Source: a virus
Virus genome (UHGV): UHGV-1498341
DNA length: 25,394 bases
Reading direction: 5' to 3' (one strand)
A program made the translations under genes and the position numbers. The notes under the pieces are model-generated. The model worked only from the letters and a program-made list of their open reading frames with translations. It was not told the origin of the DNA and did not search any database. This document shows, in pieces, positions 1,494-24,446 of the stretch (positions are counted from its first letter, which is position 1; every line of letters begins with the position of its first letter).

Positions 1494-1697
1494 CTATTTA
1501 TTTTGCTTAAGTATATGAACTTTCCAATTGTAATCTACGTCATCAGTGAATACATTTAAACAGGTTTCGTAGTCATCCTCATAGTCAAGATTAAATCTGA
1601 CTTGAGGAGAACTACCCCTGATACGCTCAAAATCGTAAAAATTATTGAATTTGTAACCTACACTTTGAAAGTAGTTATTTAACTCCCAATTATACAT
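1494..1697 (-). CDS. small hypothetical protein
   Basis: 67 aa. Starts 10 nt after the endolysin stop. Confidence 0.45.
   Translation of the reverse strand: MYNWELNNYFQSVGYKFNNFYDFERIRGSSPQVRFNLDYEDDYETCLNVFTDDVDYNWKVHILKQNK
1612..1620 (-). repeat. motif copy (exact), in the 67-aa gene
   Basis: Reads AGG GGU AGU = R-G-S (frame 2). Confidence 0.8.
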
Positions 1698-1707
1698 AAG
1701 CTACTCA

Positions 1708-2796
1708 TCATTTAAGCAAAGCATTAACTCTTCGCTGAACCTCTTTGTAATTGTAACCAGCTGCCTCAAGACGAGATTTACGAGAACTACCATTTCCCCA
1801 TTTACCTTGGATAACTTCTCTGGCTATTGTATCGATAGACTTGCTAGGAGTCGAGCTTACTGAACCGCTATGACAAAGCCTATTAACTTCTGCCTGAACC
1901 TCTGAGTAATTGTATCCCTCAGCCTGAAGTCTATTCTTTCTATCTTCTCCATTTCCATAATCACCTCTCATTACAGCCTGAGCTACTTCAGTAATAGACT
2001 TGCTAGGTCTAGGTGCTGGTGCTGGCTGAGGTGCTGGTGCAGGTTTAGGTGCTGGTGCTGGAGCTGGCTTACTAGAAGAACCAAGTAACTCATTTACTTT
2101 TGCCTGAACAGATGAGTAAACGTAACCAGATGCCTCTAATCGTTCCTTTCGCTCTGAGCCATTTCCCCATTTACCATTGATAACTTCTCTGGCTACTTCA
2201 TCAAGCGATTTAACTGGAGCAGGATTGCTAGGAACTACCCCTGAAACGGAAGAACCACCTGAAGCACCAAGTAACTTATTTACCTCATCTGCTATATAAA
2301 ACATCTTTGACATTAAATATGCTCCTGGACAATCTTTATTTTTGAAATCCCTATGAACGGTCATGTTACAACCATTTCTATGATTGATACGGTCATCTTT
2401 ACTGTCAGACCATACTAACTTATTAATATTATTACGTTTACAAACATCTGCAACAAGTTTAATAAGAGAACTCATTGCTACCCCTGAAACATGCCAACCT
2501 GTATCAGCTCCACCGTCATTGGCTACTTCAATTGTAATAGCCCTCATATCATTAGCTTTATTAGAGCTACACCAACTTCTATCGGCTTCATCTACATAGC
2601 AACCTATACGTCCATCAGAACCTACTCCATAATTACTTGATGCCTTACGACTTGTAGGTGCGAAAACATTGGCACATGTCTCAATAGACAAGTTGCCTGC
2701 CATGCAATGTATCGTGATAGTATCAATAGCATGGTCTCTAGGTGAAGTCTTGTTAGGACTAATCTTTACATACTCTACTAAGCTTGAATAACTCAT
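1708..2796 (-). CDS. endolysin: N-acetylmuramoyl-L-alanine amidase (Amidase_2/PGRP) with three C-terminal CW_7 cell-wall-binding repeats
   Basis: 362 aa. The N-terminal domain has ITIHCMAG...CPG. A PAPAPAPKPAPAPQPAPAPRP linker follows. Three approximately 40-aa repeats (GKWGNGSERKERLEASGYVYSSVQAKVNELL, GDYGNGEDRKNRLQAEGYNYSEVQAEVNRL, GKWGNGSSRKSRLEAAGYNYKEVQRRVNALL) match the Cpl-7 CW_7 repeat. Confidence 0.9.
   Translation of the reverse strand: MSYSSLVEYVKISPNKTSPRDHAIDTITIHCMAGNLSIETCANVFAPTSRKASSNYGVGSDGRIGCYVDEADRSWCSSNKANDMRAITIEVANDGGADTGWHVSGVAMSSLIKLVADVCKRNNINKLVWSDSKDDRINHRNGCNMTVHRDFKNKDCPGAYLMSKMFYIADEVNKLLGASGGSSVSGVVPSNPAPVKSLDEVAREVINGKWGNGSERKERLEASGYVYSSVQAKVNELLGSSSKPAPAPAPKPAPAPQPAPAPRPSKSITEVAQAVMRGDYGNGEDRKNRLQAEGYNYSEVQAEVNRLCHSGSVSSTPSKSIDTIAREVIQGKWGNGSSRKSRLEAAGYNYKEVQRRVNALLK
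2011..2068 (-). repeat. hexanucleotide (ggtgct-type) microsatellite encoding the Pro-Ala endolysin linker
   Basis: aggtgctggtgctggctgaggtgctggtgcaggtttaggtgctggtgctggagctggc encodes PAPAPAPKPAPAPQPAPAPRP. Slippage-prone. Confidence 0.7.
2235..2243 (-). repeat. motif copy (exact), in the endolysin
   Basis: Reads S-G-V in SVSGVVPS (frame 1). Confidence 0.8.
2478..2486 (-). repeat. motif copy (exact), in the endolysin
   Basis: Reads S-G-V in HVSGVAMS (frame 1). Confidence 0.8.
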
Positions 2797-3294: not shown

Positions 3295-3837
3295 TTATTT
3301 TGTCTTAATATCTAATACAACGCTGTAATCATCGTCTTTATTTATACAGCTTTTACCAAAAAGATGAACATCGTTAAATTTCAACTGATGGGCTACACCA
3401 TCTACATTTATAATGATTTTAGCATTACCAAAATCATAACCTATAGAAGCTACCCCTAAAGTTCTGGCATAAGCAAGCAACTCTCGTAAAGTTGTGTAAT
3501 CTTCTGTTTTAGGTGTGTAATCCTTTAAAATAAAAGCTAGGTTACCAGACATAAAAAATTCTCTAATTGGTATCTCAGAAAAGTCATAAAGCTTATCATC
3601 AATTTCAAAGAGTAACTCGTAGCAGAAATTTTCTTTCAAATTATTTATACAATATTGACTGAAATCTTTCATACTTGTAAAATCATAATCTTCATGTAGT
3701 CCTAGTATAATAACATTAGCAGTGTTAATCACTCCTAAAGGCTTTATACTATCTAAAACATAAGTCTTATCGTTTAAATTAAACTGCATTCCACCCTTAC
3801 GACACTGTATCATTTCAACAAAATCAAATAACTTCAT
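3295..3837 (-). CDS. hypothetical protein (accessory island gene 4)
   Basis: 180 aa. RBS aaaaggagg. Followed by an intrinsic terminator. Confidence 0.5.
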   Translation of the reverse strand: MKLFDFVEMIQCRKGGMQFNLNDKTYVLDSIKPLGVINTANVIILGLHEDYDFTSMKDFSQYCINNLKENFCYELLFEIDDKLYDFSEIPIREFFMSGNLAFILKDYTPKTEDYTTLRELLAYARTLGVASIGYDFGNAKIIINVDGVAHQLKFNDVHLFGKSCINKDDDYSVVLDIKTK

Positions 3838-3860: not shown

Positions 3861-3882
3861 TAGAGGGGAAAAATCCCCTCTA
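3861..3882 (-). other. perfect 9-bp hairpin between island genes 3 and 4, with no U-tract
   Basis: tagagggga-aaaa-tcccctcta lies between the stop at 3880 and the next RBS. It may be a processing or stability element or a partial attenuator. Confidence 0.4.
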
Positions 3883-4533
3883 AAACAATATCCTCTGCTC
3901 TACCCCTTTATTACGATAGAATTCCTCAACCTTTAATTTATTTGATTCAATCCAATCATCTTTAACTTCTTCTATGCATGAATCATATGGTATAAGCTGT
4001 TTTCTTAATTCATCAATATCATGAGCTGAAACATAAGTATCATACAAAGAAAACTCTTTAACAAATTTACCATGCTTTACGTTTTCACTTCTAGTGCAAA
4101 ACTCTAAGTAATTAGGGTCTGCACTTAGCTTCTTTAAAGGAGCTGTATCAATGACTACTCCTTTGTAGTAAGCATTATCACAACCTATATTCAACAACTT
4201 TGGTTGCATCTTACTTATAACACAATGATTGATTTCTAACCCTGACTGATACTTTTCAAAGGCTATTTTATCGGTTGCAAGCATTGTTAGCGCATACAAC
4301 TTAATCGGCATCCCTGAAATATAAACTTCAGGGTAAATACCTCCCTTACAAAAATGAACTGGGAGTTTCTGCATGTCACCTGCATTATTCATTTTATGCA
4401 CTACAAAAGTATTATCTACTTTATAAGTGCCATCAGATAACTCAAAAGTTGCTGATTTGAACGAGCCATCTGACTCAAACTCACGATGCATATTTGCATC
4501 GATTACTCCTAGCATTCTTAAAGTCTCACTCAT
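3880..4533 (-). CDS. hypothetical protein (accessory island gene 3)
   Basis: 217 aa. RBS aaggagg sits inside the upstream gene's 3' end, suggesting translational coupling. No motif recognised. Confidence 0.5.
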   Translation of the reverse strand: MSETLRMLGVIDANMHREFESDGSFKSATFELSDGTYKVDNTFVVHKMNNAGDMQKLPVHFCKGGIYPEVYISGMPIKLYALTMLATDKIAFEKYQSGLEINHCVISKMQPKLLNIGCDNAYYKGVVIDTAPLKKLSADPNYLEFCTRSENVKHGKFVKEFSLYDTYVSAHDIDELRKQLIPYDSCIEEVKDDWIESNKLKVEEFYRNKGVEQRILF

Positions 4534-4963: not shown

Positions 4964-4987
4964 CATATCATGTTTATGAAAACAAAC

Positions 4988-5467
4988 CTAATATTTGCAA
5001 GGTTCATCCTCACGAACCTTAAAGTCTGTTAGGTCTAATAAAGACCTCATCAAACTCTCCTCTACTTCTTTCGTTGTAAAATGTTCATAATCTACCTCAT
5101 ATGTAAGATATGAAGATACCTGCTCTAACAACGACTCCTTGAGCCATACAAACTGAGCATATTCATCTGGACTGAATACATCCAGACCTAACACATCATC
5201 AAGTATACTACAACTATGGTAGTATACTTTATCTTCAGTAGCCTGAAGATAAATCTTAAGGACTAATACTACCCCTGAGATTGAAACCTCTTTGTAAAAA
5301 GATATTTCTGTTATACCTTGATAATTTGTATCACTTCCATATGCCAATACCATACCATTAACTTCTTCAAACTTAGTAACTAAATAATCCATGCTACTAA
5401 ACATATTAATACTTCTGTGCTCTTTCTTAAACTCCTTGCTCTCAACTACTTTACTTGATAATCTCAT
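4988..5467 (-). CDS. hypothetical acidic protein (accessory island gene 1)
   Basis: 159 aa. Preceded by a 460-nt leader that is driven by a consensus promoter. Confidence 0.5.
   Translation of the reverse strand: MRLSSKVVESKEFKKEHRSINMFSSMDYLVTKFEEVNGMVLAYGSDTNYQGITEISFYKEVSISGVVLVLKIYLQATEDKVYYHSCSILDDVLGLDVFSPDEYAQFVWLKESLLEQVSSYLTYEVDYEHFTTKEVEESLMRSLLDLTDFKVREDEPCKY
5269..5277 (-). repeat. motif copy (exact), in island gene 1
   Basis: Reads ISGVVLVL (frame 1). Confidence 0.8.
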
Positions 5468-5632: not shown

Positions 5633-5933
5633 GAACTCAAGTAAGTGAAAAATAAGCTGATAAAATATATTTTTCATACTTACTTTATTCAGTTATACAA
5701 AGTATATTTTCATCTCAGTTAGTAGTAAAAATACCTTACAAAACATAAAAGTAAATATTTACTACCCCTTGGTTATGTAAAACATATTTTGATATTACAA
5801 ATACATAAAAATACATTATAAAGACAAAAAATAAGTGAGGCACACTACAAACTTGTAATGCACCCCACCTATCTTAAAGAGGACAATAAAATGAGAAGAA
5901 CATAAGGCAAAACCCTAAACTTATTACTCACTT

Positions 5934-5962: not shown

Positions 5963-5971
5963 TACATCTAC

Positions 5972-6469
5972 TTATTCATTCTTATCTTTTATATTGAATG
6001 TCTTTTTAATCCAATTAACTACCTCTCTTGGTGTTGATTTATCTACACAATCAGATACCTGAACTAATATCTCTTTAACCCATTTAGGGAAAGGAACTCC
6101 AATATTAGCTAAATTTTCTAAAAGACTTATAAGCTCCTCAATACAGAACCAAATAACAACTAAAGTCCTTATTGATAATGATATGCCCCAAAACGTAGGT
6201 GTTTTTCCTGCTAAGTCTAGCAAACACATATCAACCTTCAATGCTATGAAAATAGCTAGGAAAATAAAGACCTTTCTCATAATTCCATTACGTAACTCAG
6301 TTGAACTTAAAGTCTTCTTCATGATAGCGTATACTACCCCTGAAATCATATCAACCAATATTAATGAGATTAGCAACTCAAGTGCTGAATCAAATCCACC
6401 TAATGCTGCAACTACAGTAGATATTACAACTGTAAAACTAGACTTGATGATAAATAATGCTTTATCCAT
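5972..6469 (-). CDS. holin (phage_holin_4_1 / holin_tox_secr, TcdE-phi105 type)
   Basis: 165 aa with three or four hydrophobic helices (VVISTVVAALGG, LLISLILVDMISGVVYAI, VFIFLAIFIALKV, LVVIWFCIEELISLL) and a charged C-terminus. Lies directly after the tail genes. Confidence 0.75.
   Translation of the reverse strand: MDKALFIIKSSFTVVISTVVAALGGFDSALELLISLILVDMISGVVYAIMKKTLSSTELRNGIMRKVFIFLAIFIALKVDMCLLDLAGKTPTFWGISLSIRTLVVIWFCIEELISLLENLANIGVPFPKWVKEILVQVSDCVDKSTPREVVNWIKKTFNIKDKNE
6334..6342 (-). repeat. motif copy (exact), in the holin
   Basis: Reads MISGVVYA (frame 1). Confidence 0.8.
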
Positions 6470-6482: not shown

Positions 6483-8054
6483 CTATGCCTGTGTTAATGT
6501 ATATATGATTTTCATAGTTTTATCTTCAGTTTTTGTTAATACTGTCTCCTGATTATTAATTGTGCCTAAGTATGCTGAAACTATTAAAGGAACATATAAC
6601 TTTAAATCTGAAGAGCTACTATGCATATTCATCTCAATATAAGGACTAGGTATTAAATCATTGTTATCAATTAAACAATGATTTAAATATAAATGTATGC
6701 TATTATTAATCATAAAAGGATGTGTCTGCATAGTTCCATCATCGTCTATTAAAAACCAAGCAAAACCTCCAGTTCCGTCTGGTGCTACGTAGCAAAGACT
6801 ACCCCTGTATTCCTTAAAAAATCCACCAAGACCTAAATCATAATATCCTCCTTTTCTATTAGTGCCTGCAAGTAAAGTAATCATCTTACTTGTAAGAGCT
6901 ATATCTTTAAAAGTATAAGTTCCATCAAAATTTACGACCCAAACTCTTAACTTATTTGGTCTTGTATTTAAATCAGAGAAATTAAACTGTCCAGTTATAA
7001 TATATAACTTATCATTATGAATTATTTTATCTTGACTATTTAAACAATTTAGCTTACCTGTTTTACCAAAATATGCAGTTATTGCAGAGTTAATATTACT
7101 TGCAGGTATTGTAATTCTTTCTGCTACTCCATTGCCTGAATACTTTACAATTTTAAACTCTGAGTAACTTCCATCACCATCTTGACAAAAAGCATGGTCT
7201 TTAGTTGTGTAAGGTATATCTCTATATACTTCTATACCTGTATTAATAACTTCTGATGATTTTATATTTCCGTAATTGAAGCCATCAACTAAGCCTAAGC
7301 CAAACTTCTCCTTTGCTAAAACCTTAGAAATATTTTGTTTGTTATCATTACCTCTGTAAACTACGTGTAAATAATCACCATCTAACCATGCACACTTTCC
7401 TTTATTACTATCCCAACCTTTAGCATTTACTAAAGCGCCATTAGTATGATAACTTAAGTCTGCTTCTATAGATGTATCCCAAAAATTATCAGAATAAAAA
7501 TCCCTTAAACTTAAACCTTTAAGAGAATCTTCCTTTGCGTCACAACCATAACCTACTGCTCCACCACAATCAGATGTTAGACAAATGCTAGCTATGTCTC
7601 CATTGCATTGGTCTGTATTAAAATCCCAAACAAATTTTACATAGTCTGTTCCAACCTCAGACTCTCCTGCATTTATACTACCCCTGAAAGTATTACCTGT
7701 ATTAGATGCCGACTGATTGGCACAACCAATAAAAGTCTTAATCTCTTCAATGCTAGGTAAACAATGGTCTACGTCCTCAGTAATAGGTTTTGAGAAAACT
7801 AAAACTCCACCATATAATGCTTGAGCAAAATTTTTACCTGTCGGTAACTGATATAAGCTTTCTACATACCCCATACTACCAGCCCACATATTGCCTGAGG
7901 CTAATTGATTAAATGCCCCACCTAAAGCATTTCTAACAGCATTAGTAACCAAGTTTGTCTTGGTTACCTCATCTGTCAATTTTCCAGTTTTTGCATCGAA
8001 TAACTGAATAGTTGTTTTTCCTTTTAACATATAATCACCTCTAACTTTGGTCAT
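6483..8054 (-). CDS. receptor-binding / tail fiber protein
   Basis: 523 aa. The last tail gene before the holin. Gly/Asn-rich, beta-rich composition. Confidence 0.45.
   Translation of the reverse strand: MTKVRGDYMLKGKTTIQLFDAKTGKLTDEVTKTNLVTNAVRNALGGAFNQLASGNMWAGSMGYVESLYQLPTGKNFAQALYGGVLVFSKPITEDVDHCLPSIEEIKTFIGCANQSASNTGNTFRGSINAGESEVGTDYVKFVWDFNTDQCNGDIASICLTSDCGGAVGYGCDAKEDSLKGLSLRDFYSDNFWDTSIEADLSYHTNGALVNAKGWDSNKGKCAWLDGDYLHVVYRGNDNKQNISKVLAKEKFGLGLVDGFNYGNIKSSEVINTGIEVYRDIPYTTKDHAFCQDGDGSYSEFKIVKYSGNGVAERITIPASNINSAITAYFGKTGKLNCLNSQDKIIHNDKLYIITGQFNFSDLNTRPNKLRVWVVNFDGTYTFKDIALTSKMITLLAGTNRKGGYYDLGLGGFFKEYRGSLCYVAPDGTGGFAWFLIDDDGTMQTHPFMINNSIHLYLNHCLIDNNDLIPSPYIEMNMHSSSSDLKLYVPLIVSAYLGTINNQETVLTKTEDKTMKIIYTLTQA
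6799..6807 (-). repeat. motif copy (exact), in the receptor-binding protein
   Basis: Reads EYRGSL (frame 2). Confidence 0.8.
7678..7686 (-). repeat. motif copy (exact), in the receptor-binding protein
   Basis: Reads TFRGSI (frame 2). Confidence 0.8.
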
Positions 8055-8055: not shown

Positions 8056-9813
8056 TTACTCTTTATTTATAACTGAATTGAAACCTAATACATTAATAAC
8101 ATTTGGTAAACTTATAAGAGCAACCTCATCAGTTAACTCGTATCTACCTGTCCATTTAGGTTCAGAAGCTTTAACACCTGATGCATTGATAATTAACTCT
8201 GCATCTAATGTAGCAATATCTAATGTTGCAGTATCTAGTGACTTTACATAAATATTTAGTGAATGCTGCATGTCCTCTTCTACTGGGTCTAGACCAATGT
8301 CAAATGATGCAGTAAAGTAACCCTCATTGTGCAAAGTGTATCTGGGCTTAATAGGGTGTGCTACATTATCATAAACAATATTAAATTGTATATTACCTAC
8401 CCCTGTAATATTACAAACAGCTACAAAACTAGCCATAGCTCCAATACCACTATTTAACAATATAAGACTATTAAATAGTTTAACCTCTTTTCCTGCACCA
8501 ACAGAAACATCTTTAGTTAAAAACTGTGTATAATAAGAAGATACTAGAGCAGATGAACCACCTGTAGATGTCTTAAAACTAGAAGATGACTTATTACCAT
8601 AAGCTGACTCCAAATCATATTTATTGCAACTCATTGAATCGAAAGTATTAAAGCTACTTTCGATATTACATAGTATAACATTATTATACGATTTTGTCAA
8701 TATATTTTTCGTTTTGTTATCTACATAAGCTTTGGTAAACTTAATACAATCTCCTAAATCCAACTCAGGTCTATGGTCGATTTCAAAGTCACCACCGTCA
8801 AACTTAATGCCTTGGCAAGATAATAACATATTATTTATACATCTTGTTACTACTTTATCAAGCTCTTTTGAGTCTGCTGGCTGGATACCCCTGAGAAATG
8901 GATTTTCAGAAAAGAATAACTTAATCAAATTTTCACTAGCTGAGGTTTTATTTTTAACTGAGTAATCAAATCCAGCAACTGATGTAGATATTTCATTTAC
9001 TTCGTATTCAACCTCACCCATACTGTAATCGTAAACTCTGTTCTCATCTAGTGAAGCTACCAATGTGTTGTTGTAGTTTACAAGGTCAAGCTCACCATTT
9101 CTATTGATAATTACAAAACCACCAGCTAAAATTGAAAGGTAACCTAAAGCATTTCTATATGAATCCACAGAACCGTCATTACCTATAGAAAATAAAACAT
9201 CCTTATTGTAAATCCTGCTTTCTATATCACTTGCTACAGTTAGCTTATATAAATCAGTTGAACATGATTTACAGAACAATGTGAATAAGTCAAGTATGTT
9301 TCTATATCCTTGTGTTAAGATAATTCCATCGTTGTAAGAAATATCAGTAGAGAAAGCTAGCATAGAATCATACAACTCTAAATTACACGAATAGTCTGAG
9401 TTTTCAACATTACTCACATAGAAGTAACCATTTTTAACCTTACCAGTGAGATTTTCAGAGCCATCAGTATTAATTGAATAATCTAAATCACTTTGATTTA
9501 TATCATCTACTTTAAGCCATTCATTATACTCAAAACAAATATCTTTTCGCAACAGCCCTGCTTCTAGCAATCTATCTACCCCTGATGGAGTTAAAGACAT
9601 TGTAAGTTTTGAACTACATACACCACCTAAAGTAAAATAACTATTGCTTGTAGCCTGACGAGATAACTTTAAACTGTCGGACTCTACATCAGCAGGTGTA
9701 AGTGTAATTAGAGTAGTAGCATCTTTATTTAGTTTTACATTTAACTTAAATGTAAAGTCTTTTGTATCATCACTACTTATTTTATCAATATACTTTTGGT
9801 TTACACTATACAT
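8056..9813 (-). CDS. tail-associated / baseplate protein (Tal or prophage tail endopeptidase-like)
   Basis: 585 aa. Second gene after the tape measure gene. Assigned by synteny. Confidence 0.5.
   Translation of the reverse strand: MYSVNQKYIDKISSDDTKDFTFKLNVKLNKDATTLITLTPADVESDSLKLSRQATSNSYFTLGGVCSSKLTMSLTPSGVDRLLEAGLLRKDICFEYNEWLKVDDINQSDLDYSINTDGSENLTGKVKNGYFYVSNVENSDYSCNLELYDSMLAFSTDISYNDGIILTQGYRNILDLFTLFCKSCSTDLYKLTVASDIESRIYNKDVLFSIGNDGSVDSYRNALGYLSILAGGFVIINRNGELDLVNYNNTLVASLDENRVYDYSMGEVEYEVNEISTSVAGFDYSVKNKTSASENLIKLFFSENPFLRGIQPADSKELDKVVTRCINNMLLSCQGIKFDGGDFEIDHRPELDLGDCIKFTKAYVDNKTKNILTKSYNNVILCNIESSFNTFDSMSCNKYDLESAYGNKSSSSFKTSTGGSSALVSSYYTQFLTKDVSVGAGKEVKLFNSLILLNSGIGAMASFVAVCNITGVGNIQFNIVYDNVAHPIKPRYTLHNEGYFTASFDIGLDPVEEDMQHSLNIYVKSLDTATLDIATLDAELIINASGVKASEPKWTGRYELTDEVALISLPNVINVLGFNSVINKE
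8397..8405 (-). repeat. motif copy (exact), in the Tal-like gene
   Basis: Reads NITGVGN (frame 1). Confidence 0.8.
9576..9584 (-). repeat. motif copy (exact), in the Tal-like gene
   Basis: Reads TPSGVDR (frame 1). Confidence 0.8.
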
Positions 9814-16912: not shown

Positions 16913-16949
16913 AAAAAGATAGGATACCCCTAGATAACTAGAGGTATCC
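16913..16949 (-). terminator. terminator/attenuator hairpin between the major tail and chaperone genes
   Basis: Minus-strand RNA: ggauaccucuag-uuau-cuagggguaucc (12-bp stem with one G-U pair), then uauc and UUUUU. The stem contains a variant copy of the motif (GGGGTATCC). Confidence 0.5.
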
Positions 16950-17485: not shown

Positions 17486-17920
17486 CTATAATCTCCTTCC
17501 ATAATTGATAGAAAATTTACTAATAAAATCTTTTGCACCATTTGCATAGACTGCTGAAAGCTTGGTGGAAGCCTTAGTAACTACCCCTGATACATAGAAA
17601 TCATCAGTTTTGATTGATTTATAGTTAGACTTGATAAAAGATACCAAATCATCAACTATCTTGATTGAATCTAAATCGGCAAATCCATTATCGTTTGCCA
17701 TAATACGATAATAACATTGTAATGATATTTCTCCATCAACAAACATACCAGTGATGTCCTTTTTCTCAACTACAGTATTATCATCAGCAAGTGAAAACAT
17801 TATACTATCTTTATCAGGCTTTAACTCATCAAATGATAGTTTCAATTTAGTGCCTGACCTGATTGTATAGTTACTATTTATATAAGAAATAATAAACTCA
17901 ATAATTTCAGATATACTCAT
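17486..17920 (-). CDS. tail completion / tail terminator protein
   Basis: 144 aa. Immediately upstream of the major tail gene. Assigned by synteny. Confidence 0.4.
   Translation of the reverse strand: MSISEIIEFIISYINSNYTIRSGTKLKLSFDELKPDKDSIMFSLADDNTVVEKKDITGMFVDGEISLQCYYRIMANDNGFADLDSIKIVDDLVSFIKSNYKSIKTDDFYVSGVVTKASTKLSAVYANGAKDFISKFSINYGRRL
17581..17589 (-). repeat. motif copy (exact), in the tail completion gene
   Basis: Reads SGVVTKA (frame 1). Confidence 0.8.
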
Positions 17921-18324: not shown

Positions 18325-18744
18325 TTACTTAGCAACTATAACTTTATTATCTAAATTACTGCCAAATTGATAATCAGATATAGCAGTAATCTCATATAAG
18401 CTACCCCTATTGTTTCGGTAATCATTTATTGTTAAACCATCTAAGTCAATAACTCCAAAACCAATTAAATCTTCTTTGGATATTGTATATGTAGTATCTA
18501 TATTAACTGTCTCGTCATTTTTAAAGGTAAATGAATCGACATAACTTTTATTTGCTTTAACATCTCTTGGAATGTAACAAGTAACTTTATCATCTTTGCT
18601 ACTACCAGTAGTTTTTCGTGCATTTACCTCATCCAAAACAAACTGAACACCTGATAATATAACCCTTGAGTAATATACTTTATTATCTCGTTCATACTTA
18701 TTGAAAATTGTAATAGTATGTGGAAATAACGACATAATACTCAA
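18325..18744 (-). CDS. head closure / head-tail adaptor protein
   Basis: 139 aa. Assigned by synteny. Confidence 0.4.
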   Translation of the reverse strand: MSIMSLFPHTITIFNKYERDNKVYYSRVILSGVQFVLDEVNARKTTGSSKDDKVTCYIPRDVKANKSYVDSFTFKNDETVNIDTTYTISKEDLIGFGVIDLDGLTINDYRNNRGSLYEITAISDYQFGSNLDNKVIVAK

Positions 18745-18768: not shown

Positions 18769-19152
18769 TTAAATCCAACTACAAGTAAGTGGTGTTCCTC
18801 CAAGATATGAATTTACAACTGAATGTAAACTAGACATTACTGATTTAGGTAATGTATCTGAAGCATAGTTTACAGACCAACTACCAACAGATTCAGAAGA
18901 TTTAATACCTACCCCGATAGACTCTGATTCAAGTCTATCACATATAGCACATACACAAGACTTAACTCGCATAAGTGTAAACTCATTTAAACTATCTTCG
19001 GTAAGATTTTGAAATCTACCAAAAGTAAAATTGTCTACAGTAATATAGCTAAGATTTAATAACCTATTAAAATCATCTTCACTGAGTTTGCCATGAAACT
19101 CATCTTTGTAGTAATTGTAATCTACAGTAATCATATAACAAACTCCTTTCAT
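18769..19152 (-). CDS. head-tail connector / DNA packaging (gp6- or gp15-like) protein
   Basis: 127 aa. First of four small genes between the capsid and major tail genes. Assigned by synteny and size only. Confidence 0.4.
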   Translation of the reverse strand: MKGVCYMITVDYNYYKDEFHGKLSEDDFNRLLNLSYITVDNFTFGRFQNLTEDSLNEFTLMRVKSCVCAICDRLESESIGVGIKSSESVGSWSVNYASDTLPKSVMSSLHSVVNSYLGGTPLTCSWI

Positions 19153-19847: not shown

Positions 19848-20714
19848 TTAGACTATAAGATTTTTTTTAACAGTTACACAAGCTGGATTTGTAACCTTGA
19901 AACCAGTGTCAACCTCTTCCTGAACGAGTGCACCTGCTGCATTAGGGTTATCAATAGTTCTCAGCATAACAAGCTTATCGATGATTGAATAAGCCATATG
20001 GTCATACATGATAAGCTCTACTTTAGAAGTATCTGCTGTCTGAGATACCCCTGAAGCGTTTCTGTATTTGAAAGAACCACCAAGCAAAGTAGCTTCAACC
20101 CAAAGCATACCCATCCAATAACCTACACGTCCAGTAGCAACAACTGAATCATTTGCAACTGGTGTATAATCTTTTCCAGCTGTCTCAAGCATAGCAGAAT
20201 AAGCATCTACTGATGCAATAACAACATCTGGTCTAGCATGTTTCTTTCTTAAATCTTTACGAAGAGCTAAAACCTTCTCCTTAATATTAGCTGATGTGAT
20301 AGCATCAGTATCAGATGAAGCAGTTCCCTCTGTAACTAATACAGCAAGACCTGTCTTCTGACGAGCAATACGAATATCCTCTGTTACTGCCCAAGTCTTA
20401 TTTAAAAGAACTGATGTTGGCATTGTAGCCTGAACATAAGCTGGAACCTTCTGACTCTTCTGGAAAGAGTTATTAGTGTTGATATCAATAACTGTATTAG
20501 CATACTCGCTATTTACGAAATCAGCACCTGGAACCTTTGGTTCAATACTATTATCTGGTGAATAAACCTCAACCTGAATCTGACCTGCATTACCTACATC
20601 ATGCTCAGATGTGAAAGTTACACCATCCTGAAAAATCTCATCTGCATATAAGCCACCTTCAACTACAGGTGACATACCAGTGGCTACAGTAGCCTGACCT
20701 ACAACTAAAGCCAT
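19848..20714 (-). CDS. major capsid protein
   Basis: 288 aa. Immediately follows the scaffold gene with a tight RBS aggagg. SPP1-like order portal-scaffold-MCP. No prohead protease gene is present. Confidence 0.6.
   Translation of the reverse strand: MALVVGQATVATGMSPVVEGGLYADEIFQDGVTFTSEHDVGNAGQIQVEVYSPDNSIEPKVPGADFVNSEYANTVIDINTNNSFQKSQKVPAYVQATMPTSVLLNKTWAVTEDIRIARQKTGLAVLVTEGTASSDTDAITSANIKEKVLALRKDLRKKHARPDVVIASVDAYSAMLETAGKDYTPVANDSVVATGRVGYWMGMLWVEATLLGGSFKYRNASGVSQTADTSKVELIMYDHMAYSIIDKLVMLRTIDNPNAAGALVQEEVDTGFKVTNPACVTVKKNLIV
20047..20054 (-). repeat. motif copy (8-mer TACCCCTG; TAT replaces TAG), in the MCP
   Basis: Reads NASGVSQT. Confidence 0.7.
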
Positions 20715-20727: not shown

Positions 20728-21459
20728 CTATTTTCGTATACCTTTGTTACGAAGAAATGTATCGACTGCACTGTCGACATCATTAACTCCGTTTGGATTA
20801 ACTACCCCTGTAAAGGAAGTAGCACCTTGTGCTACTTGACCTGTCTGAACTGTAGACTGAACAGCAACACTAGGATTTTGAGCAACACCCTGAACCTGTG
20901 CAACAGCACTAGGCTGGTTTGTATTTACCTGCTGATTTTGAGCGACACTCGTATTCTGCATAGCAGTCTGAGAAGATACCTGACCTGCAGATGGAATAGT
21001 CTGTGGTGTAGGCTGAGTGTTCTGAATGCTCTGACTGATATTGAATAATTGAGCATTTGCCTGAGTGTATTCCTTCACTGCATCTGCAAAGCTTTTTCCA
21101 TTAACAGCAAGCTTCTGAGCTTCAAAAGCAACAAACTCTTGCATATAAGCAGGAACTCCTGCATTAGCAACAATTTCTTTGTTTTTGTAACCCTGTAACT
21201 CTGCAAGGTAACTCTGTGATAACTGCTGTGCCTGAGCTAACTGATTTGTTAAATCCTGAACATGCTGATTAAGCGGATTTACTCTGCCCTGAATGATACT
21301 ATTCAACTGCTCCTGAGTAAACAGTGCCTGACTGTTTTGAGCTGACTGAGTAGGCTGAGTAGGATACCCCTGATTGACTACTTGAGTCTGAGTAGGCTGA
21401 CTCTGCACATTTTGCTGGGTGATAGGCACATTGGCTGTCGCATTAGTTAAATTATCCAT
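20728..21459 (-). CDS. scaffolding protein (Q-rich, coiled-coil)
   Basis: 243 aa with a Gln/Ala-rich low-complexity N-terminus, a predicted coiled coil and a basic C-terminus. Lies between portal and capsid genes. Driven by its own consensus promoter. Confidence 0.6.
   Translation of the reverse strand: MDNLTNATANVPITQQNVQSQPTQTQVVNQGYPTQPTQSAQNSQALFTQEQLNSIIQGRVNPLNQHVQDLTNQLAQAQQLSQSYLAELQGYKNKEIVANAGVPAYMQEFVAFEAQKLAVNGKSFADAVKEYTQANAQLFNISQSIQNTQPTPQTIPSAGQVSSQTAMQNTSVAQNQQVNTNQPSAVAQVQGVAQNPSVAVQSTVQTGQVAQGATSFTGVVNPNGVNDVDSAVDTFLRNKGIRK
20802..20810 (-). repeat. motif copy (exact), in the scaffold gene
   Basis: Reads FTGVVNP (frame 1). Confidence 0.8.
21365..21372 (-). repeat. motif copy in the forbidden frame, realised as CAG GGG TAT
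   Basis: Scaffold reads VNQGYP. The frame in which TAG would be a stop carries TAT instead. Confidence 0.7.
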
Positions 21460-21645: not shown

Positions 21646-23085
21646 TTATTCAGCTGATTGTGCAGTGTCTGATGAAATAGCATTGATTTTTGTTTGAGCA
21701 TCTTCAATAGTTTCACCATACCACTTTGCTCTATACTCAGCTTTAGACATAATACCATCTCTAACATCCTGTCTATCCTGCTCTCTCTCTTTATCATCAG
21801 CCTCAACAATATTATCTTGAGCAGTTACAGTAACCTTAGCGTCAGCATTAACTGCTACCCCTAGAACATTTTGACCTAACCAAAGTATCTCAGATACTAA
21901 AGACTTAATAGCTACACATACCATATTAGTCATTTTACCAGAGTTACGAACAAAATCCTGTCTCTCACCTGCATACTCAGTAGCTGTAACACCATTACTC
22001 ATTGAGAAATTATAAAACTTTGTTCCAAAACCTACAAGACTACTAAACATATTTAACTGATTTTGTAGTTCAGCGTCAAGCTCAGTAGAACGTAAACTTG
22101 GTGCAAAGTCCTTAATATATTCATTGATAGAAGTATCTGCATCATCACCAAAGAACTGCATTAAAGACTGTCTCATATCTTGAGGTGCAATAGGTTTACC
22201 TTGGTCATCACAAGTAAGTAAACACTTATTCATCATGATAATTCTTCTACCATTAATAACCTCTACTACACAATTATCATATACCTGGTCAATACCCTTA
22301 AGAGTATCAATAGCATTGTAATAAATGGATACCCCAAGAGGACTGTCTAAATCAACATTATTTGCAATATTAGTTTTCATTATAACAAAAAGAGGTTTAA
22401 TACTCTTTGTTCGTATAATACTCAATACTGGAATATCTAAATTAACTTTTTGATAGTTAGCATTATAAATATCATTGTAGATTACATAACCATCAGACTC
22501 CTTGATATGTGAACTAACTGTATAATAAGTCTTGCCTTTTATATTAGTCTCTGAAACAAAAGCGACCTCGGTGATTATACCGTTATCATAAGAGATAGGT
22601 ATAATCCTTGTAGCATTGTAAGACTTAATCTTGATAGTAGCATTAGCTCCACTAACAATATTACCATTAGTATCAACAGTTATACCGTCCAAATCAAGAG
22701 CAAGAGCAGATGTTCCAAGAGCAAACATTTTCTCAAGATTGTCAGATAATATTGTAGAAAAGTTATTACTGCCTAAGACTCCACCATTTTCTTTACTGCC
22801 CTGAACAAAGATACTAGACTTATTGTTTGATGAGCTAACTACAATACTTAAATCCTCACTTAATACTGATGAAACCCAATCTTCACAAGCTCGTTTAGCC
22901 ATATTCAAATGAAACATCTCACGACTAGGAGTAGTAATACCATTGCTATATGATACTGTATGATAACTTTTAACGAAGCCTTTATACCAATCAAGCCACT
23001 CACCTATTTTAGTGTAGTAGCTGGCAACGTTATAGCAGTGACCAAATCTACCCCTGATACATTTTAACATTGAACCATAATCCAT
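21646..23085 (-). CDS. portal protein
   Basis: 479 aa ORF directly downstream of terL, of typical portal size. Acidic C-terminus. Assigned by synteny only; no motif recognised. Confidence 0.65.
   Translation of the reverse strand: MDYGSMLKCIRGRFGHCYNVASYYTKIGEWLDWYKGFVKSYHTVSYSNGITTPSREMFHLNMAKRACEDWVSSVLSEDLSIVVSSSNNKSSIFVQGSKENGGVLGSNNFSTILSDNLEKMFALGTSALALDLDGITVDTNGNIVSGANATIKIKSYNATRIIPISYDNGIITEVAFVSETNIKGKTYYTVSSHIKESDGYVIYNDIYNANYQKVNLDIPVLSIIRTKSIKPLFVIMKTNIANNVDLDSPLGVSIYYNAIDTLKGIDQVYDNCVVEVINGRRIIMMNKCLLTCDDQGKPIAPQDMRQSLMQFFGDDADTSINEYIKDFAPSLRSTELDAELQNQLNMFSSLVGFGTKFYNFSMSNGVTATEYAGERQDFVRNSGKMTNMVCVAIKSLVSEILWLGQNVLGVAVNADAKVTVTAQDNIVEADDKEREQDRQDVRDGIMSKAEYRAKWYGETIEDAQTKINAISSDTAQSAE
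23048..23056 (-). repeat. motif copy (exact), in the portal gene
   Basis: Reads CIRGRFG (frame 2). Confidence 0.8.
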
Positions 23086-23096
23086 TATTAGACCTC

Positions 23097-24446
23097 CTAA
23101 CTACAAAACTTAATTATCTTATCCAAAAATGCTGACCAACTATACTCTTCAGCATCGGCAATATCAATATCAACAGAACCATTATCAAGTCTTTCATCTT
23201 CATGTCCTGGTCTACTATCCCAAACTTGATGTTCAGTAGAGCCAATAACAAACTTACAAGACTTATTAACAAGCCAATGTCGTCTAGCAAGCATAGATTG
23301 TTTAGCTGTAATACGCTTCTTAATAGTATGCTTTTGACAATTCAAAACTCTAATCTGATTATACATAGATAACTCTTTGATTACAGACCTAATCTCATTA
23401 ATCATAACTGGGTCTGCTGAGTCACCATAGATGTATCTGATTACCCCTAAATTCATTGAAATAACTGTCAATAGAAAACTCTTAAAACGTTCATGAAACT
23501 CTACAACGTCAGAGTTACCACCTTTCATATCTATCTCATCATCAAAGAAAGGAATAATCAAATGATAGTTATTACAGATAAGTGTAGCACAGAAAGCAGT
23601 ATTAGAACCATTACCACCAAAGTCTACACCAATACTTATAAACTGAACAGTAACACCTTTCAAAGACTCATTCAAATCATTTAATACCCAAGGACTACTA
23701 TCTTTAGCAAATAGAGTAAATATCAATCCGTCAGAACAAGCACGATTACCAAGGATACCCCTTTGATATTCAACGCTATTTTTATCTGGATAAGTATTCA
23801 GCAACTCCTGCTTTTGATATTCAGTTAGTGCAGTATTGTCAAACAAACTACAACGCATAAAGTTCATCTTTACTTTTTCATTTTCACAAAACCTATCAAT
23901 ATATTTTGTATAAACTTTATGAGTAGGATAAACTGGGTTTAAATCCCACCAAACTTTTTTATCATGTGACTGGGTAAGACGAGAGAGTGCCATAGCTACA
24001 AAGTCTTTTTCATCATCAGATATATAAAGGTTAGCTAACTCAACAGATAACCAAGAACCAAAAGAAAGACCTTGTATTCGTTTATAACTATCAGATTGAC
24101 CACCACCAACAAAGATTACAATTTTAATACCTGTCTTTGTTTTTATTTTAAGACACTCATTACCTTCGTATTTACCTGACTTACATCTACCCCTGAAGAT
24201 AGCAGTAAGACCTAGACCATTACAATCAGCTACATTTAATCTAGCAGTTGTAGATGAAGCACCAGATACTAGATGTATCCTATCTTTGCAATACTCAAGA
24301 TAATTAGCAAAGCTATAAATATTGATAACTGTTTTACCTGCACGATAAGCCCCCTCAAGACAATTATAAGTATTGGAGAGGCAACGATAATAGTAATCAA
24401 TATACCTCTTGCTGAAAGGTTTTATTTCAACTGTTTGTGTATACAT
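23097..24446 (-). CDS. terL: terminase large subunit (PBSX/phage_term_2-like ATPase plus nuclease)
   Basis: 449 aa. Walker A-like LEGAYRAGKT near the N-terminus. A C-terminal VDFGGNGSNTAF acidic-residue nuclease motif. Canonical position between terS and portal. Confidence 0.85.
   Translation of the reverse strand: MYTQTVEIKPFSKRYIDYYYRCLSNTYNCLEGAYRAGKTVINIYSFANYLEYCKDRIHLVSGASSTTARLNVADCNGLGLTAIFRGRCKSGKYEGNECLKIKTKTGIKIVIFVGGGQSDSYKRIQGLSFGSWLSVELANLYISDDEKDFVAMALSRLTQSHDKKVWWDLNPVYPTHKVYTKYIDRFCENEKVKMNFMRCSLFDNTALTEYQKQELLNTYPDKNSVEYQRGILGNRACSDGLIFTLFAKDSSPWVLNDLNESLKGVTVQFISIGVDFGGNGSNTAFCATLICNNYHLIIPFFDDEIDMKGGNSDVVEFHERFKSFLLTVISMNLGVIRYIYGDSADPVMINEIRSVIKELSMYNQIRVLNCQKHTIKKRITAKQSMLARRHWLVNKSCKFVIGSTEHQVWDSRPGHEDERLDNGSVDIDIADAEEYSWSAFLDKIIKFCS
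24187..24195 (-). repeat. motif copy (exact), in the large terminase gene
   Basis: Reads IFRGRCK (frame 2). Confidence 0.8.

What the first reader, a model, noticed from the sequence alone, without database searches (positions are those of the whole stretch)
1612..24195. The motif is written in both stop-free reading frames, in a TAG-avoiding variant in the third, and in non-coding DNA
Frame 1 reads xCA GGG GTA Gxx, giving (S/T/A/P)-G-V, in about 17 copies. Frame 2 reads AGG GGT AGx, giving R-G-S/R, in about 7 copies (67-aa gene, receptor-binding protein twice, T-like chaperone, portal, large terminase). In frame 3 an exact copy would create a CAG GGG TAG stop. The scaffold gene at 21365 carries CAG GGG TAT (Q-G-Y) instead, one base from the motif. 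Four copies are intergenic (1453, 5762, 15522, 16924). The peptides encoded differ, so this is not a protein repeat. It indicates selection on the DNA or RNA sequence itself.
Basis: seen in the sequence. Interest (0 to 1): 0.8.

Follow-up and report, generated by a model that had tools for sequence, protein, structure and literature searches.

The report
Polar octamer marking gut mobile elements
The eight-base word AGGGGTAG occurs about every 750 bases, on one strand only, in this small gut phage, overriding codon and even amino-acid choice; an unrelated island integrated in Lachnospira hominis carries the same word at the same density, yet that bacterium's own chromosome lacks it, so it is a selected DNA/RNA signal of mobile elements whose reader is unknown and which fits no described system.

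Summary
AGGGGTAG occurs 34 times in 25.4 kb, always on the coding strand (about 0.3-0.6 expected). It sits in two reading frames and in non-coding DNA. It is evenly spaced and conserved in relatives (89% of sites, against 35-56% for background 8-mers). Codon bias does not explain it: none of 77 Gly-Val and 22 Arg-Gly dipeptides in Lachnospira hominis genes uses this codon string.

The window is a complete, circularly permuted siphovirus genome. The same word, with the same flanks (ttC-AGGGGTAG-tt) and the same minor variant (GGGGTATCC), occurs at 2-2.6 copies per kb in an unrelated integrative island of L. hominis spanning at least 57 kb (441 copies against 1 on the other strand). No gene is shared between phage and island. 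The word stops at the integration junction. It is absent from about 50 kb of L. hominis chromosome, 57 kb of related species with 81-88% identical GlmS, and other prophages at the same site. Transposase genes resident in the island gained copies through amino-acid replacements.

It is therefore not a host Chi/KOPS-type word. It is a polar cis-signal specific to some mobile elements. The mechanism is unresolved. My leading model is an ops-like non-template-strand elongation signal (about 0.3). The main rival is a T5/tf-type nick site (about 0.2).

The parts
522..529 (-). AGGGGTAG copy (tcAGGGGTAG), in a possible 44-aa ORF (421-555) or intergenic
1032..1039 (-). AGGGGTAG copy, frame xxA GGG GTA G, ORF 574-1074
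1453..1460 (-). AGGGGTAG copy, intergenic, 34 nt upstream of the start of ORF 1153-1419
1612..1619 (-). AGGGGTAG copy, frame AGG GGT AGT, 67-aa ORF
2235..2242 (-). AGGGGTAG copy, frame 1, endolysin
2478..2485 (-). AGGGGTAG copy, frame 1, endolysin
3450..3457 (-). AGGGGTAG copy, frame 1, 180-aa ORF
3900..3907 (-). AGGGGTAG copy, frame 1, 217-aa HNH-like ORF
5269..5276 (-). AGGGGTAG copy, frame 1, 159-aa ORF
5762..5769 (-). AGGGGTAG copy, non-coding; in the 5' leader about 165 nt downstream of the perfect sigma-70-type promoter (5962-5934) and after hairpin 5874-5829
6334..6341 (-). AGGGGTAG copy, frame 1, holin
6799..6806 (-). AGGGGTAG copy, frame 2, tail/RBP ORF 6483-8054
7678..7685 (-). AGGGGTAG copy, frame 2, tail/RBP ORF 6483-8054
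8397..8404 (-). AGGGGTAG copy, frame 1, tail ORF 8056-9813
9576..9583 (-). AGGGGTAG copy, frame 1, tail ORF 8056-9813
10403..10410 (-). AGGGGTAG copy, frame 1, tape measure
10694..10701 (-). AGGGGTAG copy, frame 1, tape measure
11150..11157 (-). AGGGGTAG copy, frame 1, tape measure
11414..11421 (-). AGGGGTAG copy, frame 1, tape measure
12656..12663 (-). AGGGGTAG copy, frame 1, tape measure
13346..13353 (-). AGGGGTAG copy, frame 1, tape measure
14258..14265 (-). AGGGGTAG copy, frame 1, tape measure
14297..14304 (-). AGGGGTAG copy, frame 1, tape measure
15522..15529 (-). AGGGGTAG copy, intergenic, 35 nt upstream of terminator-like hairpin 15487-15462
16118..16125 (-). AGGGGTAG copy, frame 1, ORF 15858-16460
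16399..16406 (-). AGGGGTAG copy, frame 2, ORF 15858-16460
16581..16588 (-). AGGGGTAG copy, frame 1, ORF 16438-16890
17581..17588 (-). AGGGGTAG copy, frame 1, ORF 17486-17920
18401..18408 (-). AGGGGTAG copy, frame 2, ORF 18325-18744
20802..20809 (-). AGGGGTAG copy, frame 1, ORF 20728-21459
21855..21862 (-). AGGGGTAG copy, frame 1, portal
23048..23055 (-). AGGGGTAG copy, frame 2, portal
24187..24194 (-). AGGGGTAG copy, frame 2, large terminase
24684..24691 (-). AGGGGTAG copy, frame 1, small terminase
8884..8891 (-). Variant GGGGTATCC
16923..16930 (-).
20044..20051 (-). Variant GGGGTATCT; fills the largest gap between exact copies
21363..21370 (-). Variant CAG GGG TAT CC (frame where TAG would be a stop)
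23754..23761 (-). Variant GGGGTATCC (frame xGG GGT ATC)
18908..18915 (-). Variant CGGGGTAG; fills the largest gap
25079..25086 (-). Variant CGGGGTAG
3880..4533 (-). 217-aa core gene of the lineage; tentative I-HmuI-like HNH (nicking-type) endonuclease. The only candidate element-encoded reader, and it is not shared with the island.

Best explanation
SHOWN. AGGGGTAG is a positively selected, orientation-locked cis-acting word. Its extended form is ttC-AGGGGTAG-tt and its minor form is GGGGTATCC. At least two unrelated mobile elements of Lachnospira-type gut Firmicutes carry it: this complete 25.4-kb siphovirus lineage, and an integrative island of Lachnospira hominis spanning at least 57 kb. 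The host chromosome does not carry it, nor do other prophages at the same integration site.

INFERRED. The two elements have identical primary and secondary specificity but no detectable common gene. One common reader is therefore the simplest explanation, either host-encoded or supplied in trans.

PROPOSED MECHANISM (not shown). The word acts on the non-template strand of the transcription bubble as an ops-like signal. Every 0.4-0.75 kb it re-recruits or re-licenses an elongation/antitermination factor (NusG-paralog type), or imposes a programmed pause. This would let RNA polymerase traverse tens of kilobases of strictly co-directional foreign genes, and their internal terminators, without premature termination.
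For: Reality and selection:
- 34 copies against 0 on the other strand, 0.3-0.6 expected.
- 89% of sites conserved in relatives, against 35-56% for background 8-mers.
- Spacing more even than random in the phage (CV 0.63, P=0.002) and in 6 of 7 island loci (CV 0.43-0.63, P<=0.003).
- Host genes never use the codon string.
- TnpB genes in the island gained 2-3 copies each through amino-acid replacements; nine chromosomal homologs have none.

Common reader:
- An unrelated island carries 441 copies against 1 in 220 kb of partly redundant loci.
- Its flank logo is identical to the phage's, and TCC is its commonest alternative ending too.
- No shared protein was found (tblastx/tblastn/HMM).

Restricted to mobile elements, as ops is restricted to horizontally acquired operons:
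- The word starts inside the integrase gene at the junction: 15 copies in 7.1 kb of island against 0 in 14.6 kb of adjoining host DNA.
- 0 copies in about 50 kb of L. hominis chromosome and 57 kb of related species (81-88% identical GlmS).
- 0 copies in other prophages at the same site; the one with gene calls on both strands (L362) has bidirectional gene modules.

Fit to transcription:
- Every copy lies on the non-template (coding) strand.
- Both carriers are strictly unidirectional gene arrays, whereas about 23% of host genes nearby are on the other strand.
- One non-coding copy sits in the 5' leader of a perfect promoter. Another sits 35 nt before a terminator-like hairpin.
- The word shares G2 and G4-G5-T6-A7-G8 with ops (GGCGGTAG). 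G5 and T6 are the bases RfaH reads (PMC5995543).
Against: - No known ops-type signal is repeated 1.3-2.6 times per kb inside ORFs. Known ones occur once or twice, in leaders.
- The C3:G8 closing pair that RfaH needs is absent. The equivalent of C3 is G, and the C3G change reduces recruitment in E. coli.
- No NusG/KOW-like protein was found in the window or among the sampled island genes. Whether L. hominis has a NusG paralog could not be checked.
- The known Firmicute paralog LoaP is reported to use an RNA hairpin (my own knowledge).
- All genes are co-oriented in both elements, so transcription polarity cannot be separated from replication or packaging polarity.
- The host of the window phage itself is not established: only RBP similarity to Lachnospiraceae phages and weak similarity to L. 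hominis prophage lysis genes.
- The 6/8 match to ops is only suggestive, given the number of known motifs I compared against.
Confidence: 0.3

Rival explanations
1. Recognition site of a strand-specific nickase. Virion or replicating DNA would carry site-specific single-strand interruptions on the G-rich strand, as in T5/BF23, phiKMV-like and tf/LUZ24-like phages. The candidate enzyme is the I-HmuI-like HNH protein (3880-4533).
For: - The phenomenology has a precedent. Phage tf has 14 copies of TACTRTGMC on the top strand only, all nicked, at positions conserved in relatives; a few substitutions are tolerated (PMC3517423).
- Here too there is an exact asymmetric word with a limited set of variants, conserved positions and restriction to mobile elements.
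- Distant relatives that lack the motif also lack this gene.
Against: - The HNH assignment is weak: no Pfam hit, no Foldseek hit, and low pLDDT in the catalytic segment.
- The island has the same word and the same variant but no homolog of this protein in 353 kb of loci.
- Density is 4-8 times higher than in any known nicked phage.
- In the roughly 65 kb of unique coding sequence sampled, the island shows no phage structural genes.
- Nicks have no known function, so they do not explain strong per-site selection or even spacing.
Confidence: 0.2
2. Chi-like signal. The word attenuates a processive helicase-nuclease (AddAB/RecBCD-type, or a defence nuclease) that enters at DNA ends. It would protect rolling-circle tails and injected, circularly permuted DNA.
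For: - It is a G-rich, polar 8-mer.
- The orientation places the word on the 3'-ended strand for an enzyme entering from the last-packaged end. This is an inference that depends on packaging running in the direction of late transcription.
- Even spacing suits a rule of 'any end soon meets a site'.
- The phage has no recognisable anti-nuclease or recombination genes.
Against: - A host Chi should be over-represented on the host leading strand.
- AGGGGTAG occurs 0 times in about 50 kb of L. hominis and 57 kb of related species, against roughly 10-20 expected at one per 5 kb (P about 4e-5 for the 50 kb).
- Other prophages of the same host lack it.
Confidence: 0.08
3. Priming sites on the lagging-strand template for a sequence-specific primase, analogous to T7 gp4 sites such as 5'-GGGTC-3'. 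The spacing would match Okazaki-fragment length.
For: - The core GGGGTA resembles T7-type sites (my own knowledge).
- The word lies on the G-rich strand, which is the expected lagging-strand template if replication runs with transcription.
- Spacing is 0.4-0.75 kb and even.
Against: - No primase, helicase or polymerase is recognisable in the 25.4-kb genome or in the sampled island genes.
- Host DnaG does not need an 8-mer, and the host chromosome lacks the word.
Confidence: 0.07
4. Stoperator-like sites. An asymmetric DNA-binding repressor would bind the word and block elongating RNA polymerase, silencing the whole element.
For: - Cluster A mycobacteriophages have more than 20 asymmetric 13-mers whose orientation follows transcription (PMC9283540).
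- The island is integrated and could need global silencing. It is co-oriented with upstream host genes.
Against: - Stoperators lie in promoters and short intergenic gaps. Here 30 of 34 copies lie inside ORFs.
- The phage has no repressor or integrase and never appears on contigs longer than about 28 kb.
- A lytic phage should lose sites for another element's repressor, yet these sites are conserved.
Confidence: 0.07
5. RNA-level signal in the mRNA (UCAGGGGUAG). It would be a binding site for a protein or for the 30S subunit (Shine-Dalgarno-like AGGGG), for example to block 5'-3' exonucleolytic decay or to titrate a regulator.
For: - All copies are in the sense transcript.
- AGGGG can pair with the anti-SD with one wobble (by inspection).
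- Flanks are U-rich and poor in G, as expected for a single-stranded site.
Against: - The invariant UAG and the 5' C are not explained by anti-SD pairing.
- Host genes almost never contain GGGGTA (5 copies in 69 kb), so it is not the host's SD.
- The word lacks the GGA that CsrA requires (my own knowledge).
- There is no associated structure and no Rfam family.
Confidence: 0.08
6. No function: a by-product of codon preference, a protein repeat, or a mutational/repair drive.
For: - The strong G>C skew of the coding strand favours G-rich words.
- A biased-repair drive cannot be strictly excluded.
Against: - The host shows the same skew (0.19-0.24) but has no copies, and no GV or RG dipeptide is encoded this way.
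- Frames and peptides differ between copies, and flanks are unrelated.
- The other over-represented 8-mers in 228 loci are tandem domain repeats with conserved flanks, unlike this word.
- One-mismatch variants are neither depleted nor enriched.
- Even spacing and site conservation indicate selection.
Confidence: 0.03

Closest known systems
ops element / RfaH (NusG-paralog recruitment signal; plasmid variants such as the PrfaH ops-like site)
   Same: - Read in one orientation on the non-template strand.
- Confined to long, horizontally acquired, co-directional operons on unrelated elements, and absent from core genes.
- Shares G2 and GGTAG with GGCGGTAG.
   Different: - ops occurs once or twice per operon, in the leader. 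Here there are 1.3-2.6 copies per kb, mostly inside ORFs.
- The C3:G8 hairpin pair is missing.
- The host is a Firmicute and no cognate factor has been identified.
Localized nick motifs of phages (T5/BF23, phiKMV-like, tf/LUZ24-like)
   Same: - An exact asymmetric word found on one strand only.
- Heavily over-represented, with positions conserved among relatives and limited variants tolerated.
- Specific to phages, with unknown function.
   Different: - Those phages have 4-14 sites per genome; here there are 34-40 per 20-25 kb.
- Here the word is shared with an unrelated integrated island that lacks the candidate nickase.
- Nicks have not been demonstrated.
Chi (RecBCD/AddAB) and KOPS/SRS (FtsK/SpoIIIE) polar chromosomal words
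   Same: - G-rich 5-8-mers with strict functional polarity.
- Read by a processive DNA motor, with a dispersed distribution.
   Different: - Those words are properties of the host chromosome: one per few kb, skewed with replication.
- This word is absent from about 107 kb of Lachnospira chromosome and present only in certain mobile elements, at 5-10 times higher density.
Stoperators of cluster A mycobacteriophages
   Same: - Dozens of asymmetric sites per genome whose orientation follows transcription.
- Element-specific.
   Different: - Stoperators are 13-mers in promoters and short intergenic gaps, bound by the phage's own immunity repressor and confined to one phage cluster.
- Here the sites lie inside ORFs, in a phage without a repressor, and in an unrelated island.
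DNA uptake sequences (DUS/USS)
   Same: A short exact word at about one per kb that distorts coding sequences.
   Different: DUS/USS fill the host chromosome in both orientations. This word is on one strand only and absent from the host chromosome.

Membership tests
Chi (RecBCD/AddAB) | Over-represented on the host chromosome (about one per few kb) and biased to the leading strand | tested here: not met
   0 copies on either strand in about 50 kb of L. hominis and 57 kb of related species; about 1-1.6 expected from composition
Chi (RecBCD/AddAB) | Attenuates the helicase-nuclease when met from the 3' side | not testable with these tools
   Needs biochemistry or genetics
KOPS/SRS (FtsK/SpoIIIE) | Skewed octamer distributed along the host chromosome towards dif | tested here: not met
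   Absent from host chromosomal DNA
ops / RfaH-type signal | Lies on the non-template strand of transcribed DNA, in one orientation only | tested here: met
   34 of 34 copies (window) and 441 of 442 (island loci) lie on the coding strand
ops / RfaH-type signal | Confined to horizontally acquired long operons and absent from core genes | tested here: met
   Present in two unrelated mobile elements. Sharp boundary at the integration junction. 0 copies in host DNA
ops / RfaH-type signal | Sequence GGCGGTAGnnTG, with G5/T6 presented by a C3:G8-closed loop | tested here: not met
   G2 and GGTAG are shared (6 of 8), but position 3 is G, and C3G reduces RfaH recruitment. The conserved C at -1 (73-76%) could pair with G8, but that would be a different geometry.
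ops / RfaH-type signal | One or two copies, in the 5' leader of the operon | tested here: not met
   1.3-2.6 copies per kb; 30 of 34 inside ORFs
ops / RfaH-type signal | A cognate NusG paralog is present | not tested
   None in the window or the sampled island genes. The L. hominis proteome could not be searched.
Phage localized-nick motifs (T5, phiKMV-like, tf) | Exact asymmetric word on one strand only, at positions conserved among relatives | tested here: met
   precedent
Phage localized-nick motifs (T5, phiKMV-like, tf) | Ligase-repairable nicks at the word in virion DNA | not testable with these tools
   Needs virion DNA or raw read-end data
Phage localized-nick motifs (T5, phiKMV-like, tf) | An element-encoded nicking enzyme | tested here: inconclusive
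   [not shown]
Stoperators (cluster A mycobacteriophages) | Many asymmetric sites oriented with transcription | tested here: met
   definition
Stoperators (cluster A mycobacteriophages) | Located in promoters and short intergenic spaces | tested here: not met
   30 of 34 copies inside ORFs
Stoperators (cluster A mycobacteriophages) | A cognate immunity repressor encoded by the same element | tested here: inconclusive
   No repressor or integrase recognised in the window. The only HTH candidate is an 88-aa protein resembling sigma region 4 (1153-1419).
DNA uptake sequences (DUS/USS) | Abundant throughout the host chromosome, in both orientations | tested here: not met
Primase recognition sites (T7-type) | An element-encoded primase of matching specificity | tested here: not met
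   No primase or helicase domain in any window ORF
Protein repeat / codon bias | Same peptide and frame, or the same codon string used by host genes | tested here: not met
   Two frames plus non-coding copies, with differing peptides. None of 77 GV or 22 RG dipeptides in host genes uses the string.

The most novel reading that the evidence does not exclude
AGGGGTAG is the cis-element of a previously undescribed system specific to mobile elements in Lachnospiraceae. It would act as a dense, polar 'licence' or 'self' tag that unrelated phages and islands converge on, because a single trans-acting reader runs co-directionally along foreign DNA or its transcript and needs the word every 0.5 kb or so. 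Selection would be strong enough to rewrite protein sequences, including those of newly acquired genes. This would be a new class of genome-wide signal alongside Chi, KOPS, DUS and ops.
Probability: 0.4. Interest if true: 0.9.

Novelty: new variant of a known kind. Interest (0 to 1): 0.8.

Why it matters
The known genome-wide polar words (Chi, KOPS/SRS, DUS/USS) belong to chromosomes. Element-specific ones (ops, stoperators, nick motifs) are sparse or confined to one lineage. This word differs on both counts: it is hyper-dense and strictly single-stranded, it is shared by unrelated mobile elements, and it is absent from the one identified host's chromosome (L. hominis, host of the island; the phage's own host is unproven). 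Selection for it is strong enough to change amino acids, including in transposase genes that entered the island.

Three consequences would follow if this holds.
- It gives a sequence-only marker for a set of gut mobile elements and for their host linkage.
- It points to an unknown trans-acting reader (an elongation factor, nickase or nuclease) in an abundant human gut commensal.
- It offers a tractable case for measuring how strongly a DNA-level signal can constrain protein evolution.

All three are directly testable with oligonucleotide pull-downs, nick or 3'-end mapping, and recoding.

Tried and rejected
- **Codon bias or protein repeat.** Rejected.
- **Host Chi/KOPS-type word.** Rejected by host DNA counts.
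- **Trait inherited within the phage lineage.** Portal relatives at 30-35% identity lack the word and show no comparable word, while an unrelated island has it.
- **Melainabacteria as host.** The only evidence was a binned contig. That contig is a fragment of the Lachnospira island.
- **Host identification through a shared IS.** TnpB had no near-identical chromosomal copy; the best was 53%. The scan still gave 1.3 Mb of control DNA holding only 17 copies outside L129.
- **Shared reader gene.** tblastx, tblastn and an HMM of the HNH family against 353 kb of island loci found nothing.
- **Separating transcription polarity from DNA polarity.** I looked for opposite-strand genes in the island, but the only such ORFs are low-complexity antisense artefacts.
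- **Structure around the sites.** No local RNA/DNA structure, no Rfam family, no tRNA.
- **Other dense single-strand 8-mers in 228 loci.** All were tandem protein-domain repeats.
- **Independent support for the HNH fold.** Foldseek gave none, and a PDB sequence-profile search found nothing.
- **Inspection only.** A sigma-B-type -10 (GGGTAT) with an upstream GTTT, anti-SD pairing, and a CsrA site do not fit the invariant positions.
- **Literature.** Searches for the word in either orientation found no description.
- **First pattern scan of viral contigs.** It mostly returned collagen-like tandem repeats.

Full report
**1. The observation**

CAGGGGTAG occurs 25 times and its core AGGGGTAG 34 times in the 25,394-base window. 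Every copy is on the '-' strand. Dinucleotide shuffles give 0.09 and 0.61. An unbiased k-mer ranking puts this word and its extensions first at every k from 7 to 10: TCAGGGGTAG occurs 17 times and GGGGTA 44 times, against 1 on the other strand.

All predicted genes lie on the '-' strand. Against the ORF map:
- 23 copies read xxA GGG GTA Gxx (17 with the 5' C)
- 7 copies read AGG GGT AGx
- none lies in the frame where TAG would be a stop
- 4 lie outside ORFs of at least 60 aa; one of these, at 522, falls in a possible 44-aa ORF

Three corrections are needed. Copies also exist at 522, 1032, 1453 and 24684. GGGGTATC is itself enriched (6 copies against 0.2 expected) and occurs in all three frames, so it is a true secondary form rather than only a way of avoiding a stop.

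**2. Selection acts on the nucleic acid**

- GGG supplies 39 of 504 Gly codons, and 23 of those lie in the motif. Even so, 28 of 64 Gly-Val dipeptides are GGGGTA and 9 of 14 Arg-Gly dipeptides are AGGGGT. GGGG occurs 56 times on the coding strand against 3 on the other.
- Flanking sequences of the copies are unrelated.
- Spacing on the circular genome is more even than random (CV 0.63 against 0.97; P=0.002). The variant forms fill the largest gaps.
- In six relatives from IMG/VR (portal 93-97% identical), the word is equally dense and confined to one strand. 106 of 119 aligned sites are identical. Only 35-56% of background 8-mers in the same alignments are fully conserved.

**3. What the window is**

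The genes are small and large terminase, portal, head and tail genes, a 1,727-aa tape measure, tail/RBP genes, a holin, a block of small ORFs of unknown function, and an endolysin.

In the relatives, window base 1 directly abuts base 25394. Homologs occur only on contigs of 22-28 kb. The window is therefore a complete, circularly permuted genome of about 25.4 kb. It belongs to an abundant human-gut siphovirus lineage; one source names a member 'Siphoviridae sp. ctoSr5'. No recognisable replication, integration or repressor genes were found. GenBank holds no close phage. GC skew has the same sign around the whole circle.

**4. The word is not a lineage heirloom**

More distant portal relatives (30-35% identity) have neither this word nor any comparable one.

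A pattern scan of IMG/VR found a 76-kb contig from the same metagenome. Its fetched segments carry 39/0, 21/0, 15/0 and 37/0 copies on the two strands. It shows no tblastx similarity to the window.

A metagenome scan returned 36 loci with GC of 31-39%, 0.9-4.2 copies per kb (typically 2-2.6) on one strand, all genes on that strand, and GC skew of 0.2-0.25. About 30 of them are relatives of the 76-kb element. None is related to the window.

Across 220 kb of these partly redundant loci the tally is 441 copies against 1. The position-specific logo around the word is the same in both families: T-rich with G avoided at -4 to -1 and at +1/+2, and C at -1 in 73-76% of sites. In the island, as in the phage, the commonest alternative to GGGGTAG is GGGGTATCC. 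A tblastn search of all window proteins and an HMM of the 217-aa family found no shared protein in 353 kb of island loci.

**5. Host and boundaries**

Several island loci lie on contigs of 130-307 kb. One of them, L255, ends in chromosomal genes including glmS. There the word stops immediately after a tyrosine-integrase gene.

The GlmS protein is 100% identical to a Lachnospira sp. MAG protein. The neighbouring AgrB, PfkB and GltD proteins are exact matches to Lachnospira hominis or Lachnospira.

- In an occupied site (L359), 14.6 kb of host DNA has 0 copies. The 7.1 kb of island that follows has 15, all on one strand, and the first lies inside the integrase gene.
- Empty sites have 0 copies in 21.8 kb.
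- Two other prophages inserted at the same hotspot have 0 copies (L362, 7.2 kb; L350/L351, 3.2 kb).
- A non-redundant chromosomal path of about 50 kb of L. hominis has 0 copies on either strand. So do 57 kb from three related species whose GlmS is 81-88% identical.
- Composition predicts about 1-1.6 copies. A Chi-like density of one per 5 kb would predict about 10 in the 50 kb (P about 4e-5).
- 1.29 Mb of unrelated, mostly Firmicute genome loci contain 17 copies in all.

A contig binned in a 'Melainabacteria' MAG that carries 33/0 copies is a fragment of the same island, so it was probably mis-binned.

**6. The host control rules out composition and codon style**

The host chromosome has the same G>C skew (0.19-0.24) and mostly co-oriented genes. 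In 14,477 L. hominis codons, GGG is 2% of Gly codons. None of 77 Gly-Val or 22 Arg-Gly dipeptides uses the motif string. Gly-Val occurs at 5.3 per 1000 codons, against 8.4 in the phage.

Three different TnpB (IS605-type) genes resident in the island carry 2-3 copies each, whereas nine chromosomal homologs (10 kb) carry none. The copies were made by amino-acid replacements at otherwise conserved positions: SNNVA to SSGVV, FYGIE to FSGVE, and GID to GVD. Spacing is also under-dispersed in 6 of 7 island loci (CV 0.43-0.63, P<=0.003).

In an incidental survey of 228 loci of at least 8 kb, only AGGGGTAG-bearing loci show a dispersed single-strand 8-mer of this strength. The other top words are tandem protein-domain repeats with conserved flanks.

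**7. What the island is**

The sampled genes amount to about 65 kb of unique coding sequence. They include an integrase, MerR-type excisionase-like proteins, a 687-aa D12-class methyltransferase-like protein, TnpB elements, a sortase and giant surface proteins. They also include a chemoreceptor, GGDEF/PilZ/HD proteins, an RF-1-domain protein, PARG, a GmrSD_N protein and many ORFans. No phage structural or conjugation genes have been seen so far.

The island spans at least 44 kb in the IMG/VR contig and at least 57 kb in a 93-kb metagenome contig. No real opposite-strand gene was found, so the word's polarity cannot be assigned to transcription rather than to replication or packaging.

**8. Mechanism**

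What is shown: this is a positively selected, polar cis-word shared by unrelated mobile elements and absent from the host chromosome. Identical primary and secondary specificity without a shared gene argues for one common reader, host-encoded or supplied in trans. That is an inference.

*Leading model: ops-like signal (about 0.3).* The word would act on the non-template strand to recruit or re-license an elongation factor. This matches the logic of ops/RfaH, in which unrelated horizontally acquired long operons share a non-template-strand word that core genes lack. It also fits three local observations:
- Both carriers are strictly unidirectional, whereas about 23% of neighbouring host genes and the motif-less prophage L362 run both ways.
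- One non-coding copy lies in a promoter leader, and another lies just before a terminator-like hairpin.
- The word shares G2 and GGTAG with GGCGGTAG, including the G5/T6 that RfaH reads.

Against the model:
- Density inside ORFs has no precedent.
- The C3:G8 pair is missing, and C3G weakens RfaH recruitment.
- No NusG paralog has been identified.

*Weaker alternatives.* Chi-like protection, primase sites, stoperator-like silencing and an mRNA-level site each fail at least one tested feature. Details are in the rivals and membership tables.

**9. Novelty**

I found no description of this word, or of a comparable element-restricted hyper-dense polar word. It belongs to the general kind 'polar genomic words read by processive machinery', but it fails the defining tests of Chi/KOPS, DUS, stoperators and canonical ops. 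Membership of the nick-motif class cannot be tested here. I therefore file it as a new variant of a known kind. There is a substantial chance (about 0.4) that it represents a new system.

**Limits**
- The host of the window phage itself is not proven. The evidence is only RBP similarity to Lachnospiraceae phages and weak similarity to L. hominis prophage lysis genes.
- Only about 50 kb of L. hominis chromosome, from one region, was sampled.
- The island is incompletely sampled and its loci are partly redundant.

Noticed in passing
window 1-25394: The window is a complete, circularly permuted siphovirus genome of about 25.4 kb. Every gene is on one strand, and no replication, integration or repressor gene is recognisable. 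How it replicates is unknown.
   Followed up: partly
window 4845-5971: Regulatory region containing a perfect sigma-70-type promoter with a TG extension (5962-5934, '-'), a hairpin with a 20-bp stem plus T-run (5874-5829), and four direct repeats of about 52 nt (4845-4896, 4942-4993, 5611-5662, 5689-5740). The repeats flank the 159-aa ORF and could be promoters or iterons.
   Followed up: no
[not shown]
   Followed up: partly
window 1153-1419 (-): An 88-aa protein with a weak sigma-70 region-4/HTH match lies a few small ORFs upstream of the packaging and late genes. It may be a late-gene regulator.
   Followed up: no
window 1708-2796 and 10242-15425: The endolysin has an Amidase_2 domain, three CW_7 repeats and a PAPAP-type linker repeat (2005-2061). 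The tape-measure gene has internal 132-nt repeats (11194-11508).
   Followed up: no
L359, L360-L364, L350, L351 (L. hominis, downstream of glmS and the GGGtGRT-domain gene): This is an integration hotspot. The same site is empty, or occupied by the motif island, or occupied by different prophages. One of those prophages (L362) encodes a tubulin (PhuZ-like) protein and a T5orf172 protein.
   Followed up: partly
L346-L355, about 7950-8600: A 192-aa Phage_integrase-family gene next to CsrA and flagellin is on the '+' strand in some L. hominis contigs and on the '-' strand in others. This suggests an invertible segment, possibly a flagellar phase switch.
   Followed up: no
L129 (CAKVIN010000029.1): A contig assigned to a 'Candidatus Melainabacteria' MAG is a fragment of the Lachnospira island (66-84% aa identity to L113; 33/0 motif copies). 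It was probably mis-binned.
   Followed up: yes
L113 16808-18166; L211 11513-13300; L310 1-2280; island loci generally: The island carries host-type cargo: a GGDEF cyclase, a Cache-MCP chemoreceptor, an ADP-ribosyltransferase domain protein, a sortase, surface proteins of 1,200-1,900 aa, an RF-1-domain protein and PARG. All are seeded with the word at the usual density.
   Followed up: partly
L305 3023-3763; L316 652-1392: Two short, very motif-dense contigs (3.7 and 2.5 copies per kb) are unrelated to the sampled parts of both elements. They encode a 246-aa HNH-type endonuclease that my reading of the sequence suggests also has an AP2-like region. They may be another carrier lineage or an unsampled part of the island.
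   Followed up: no
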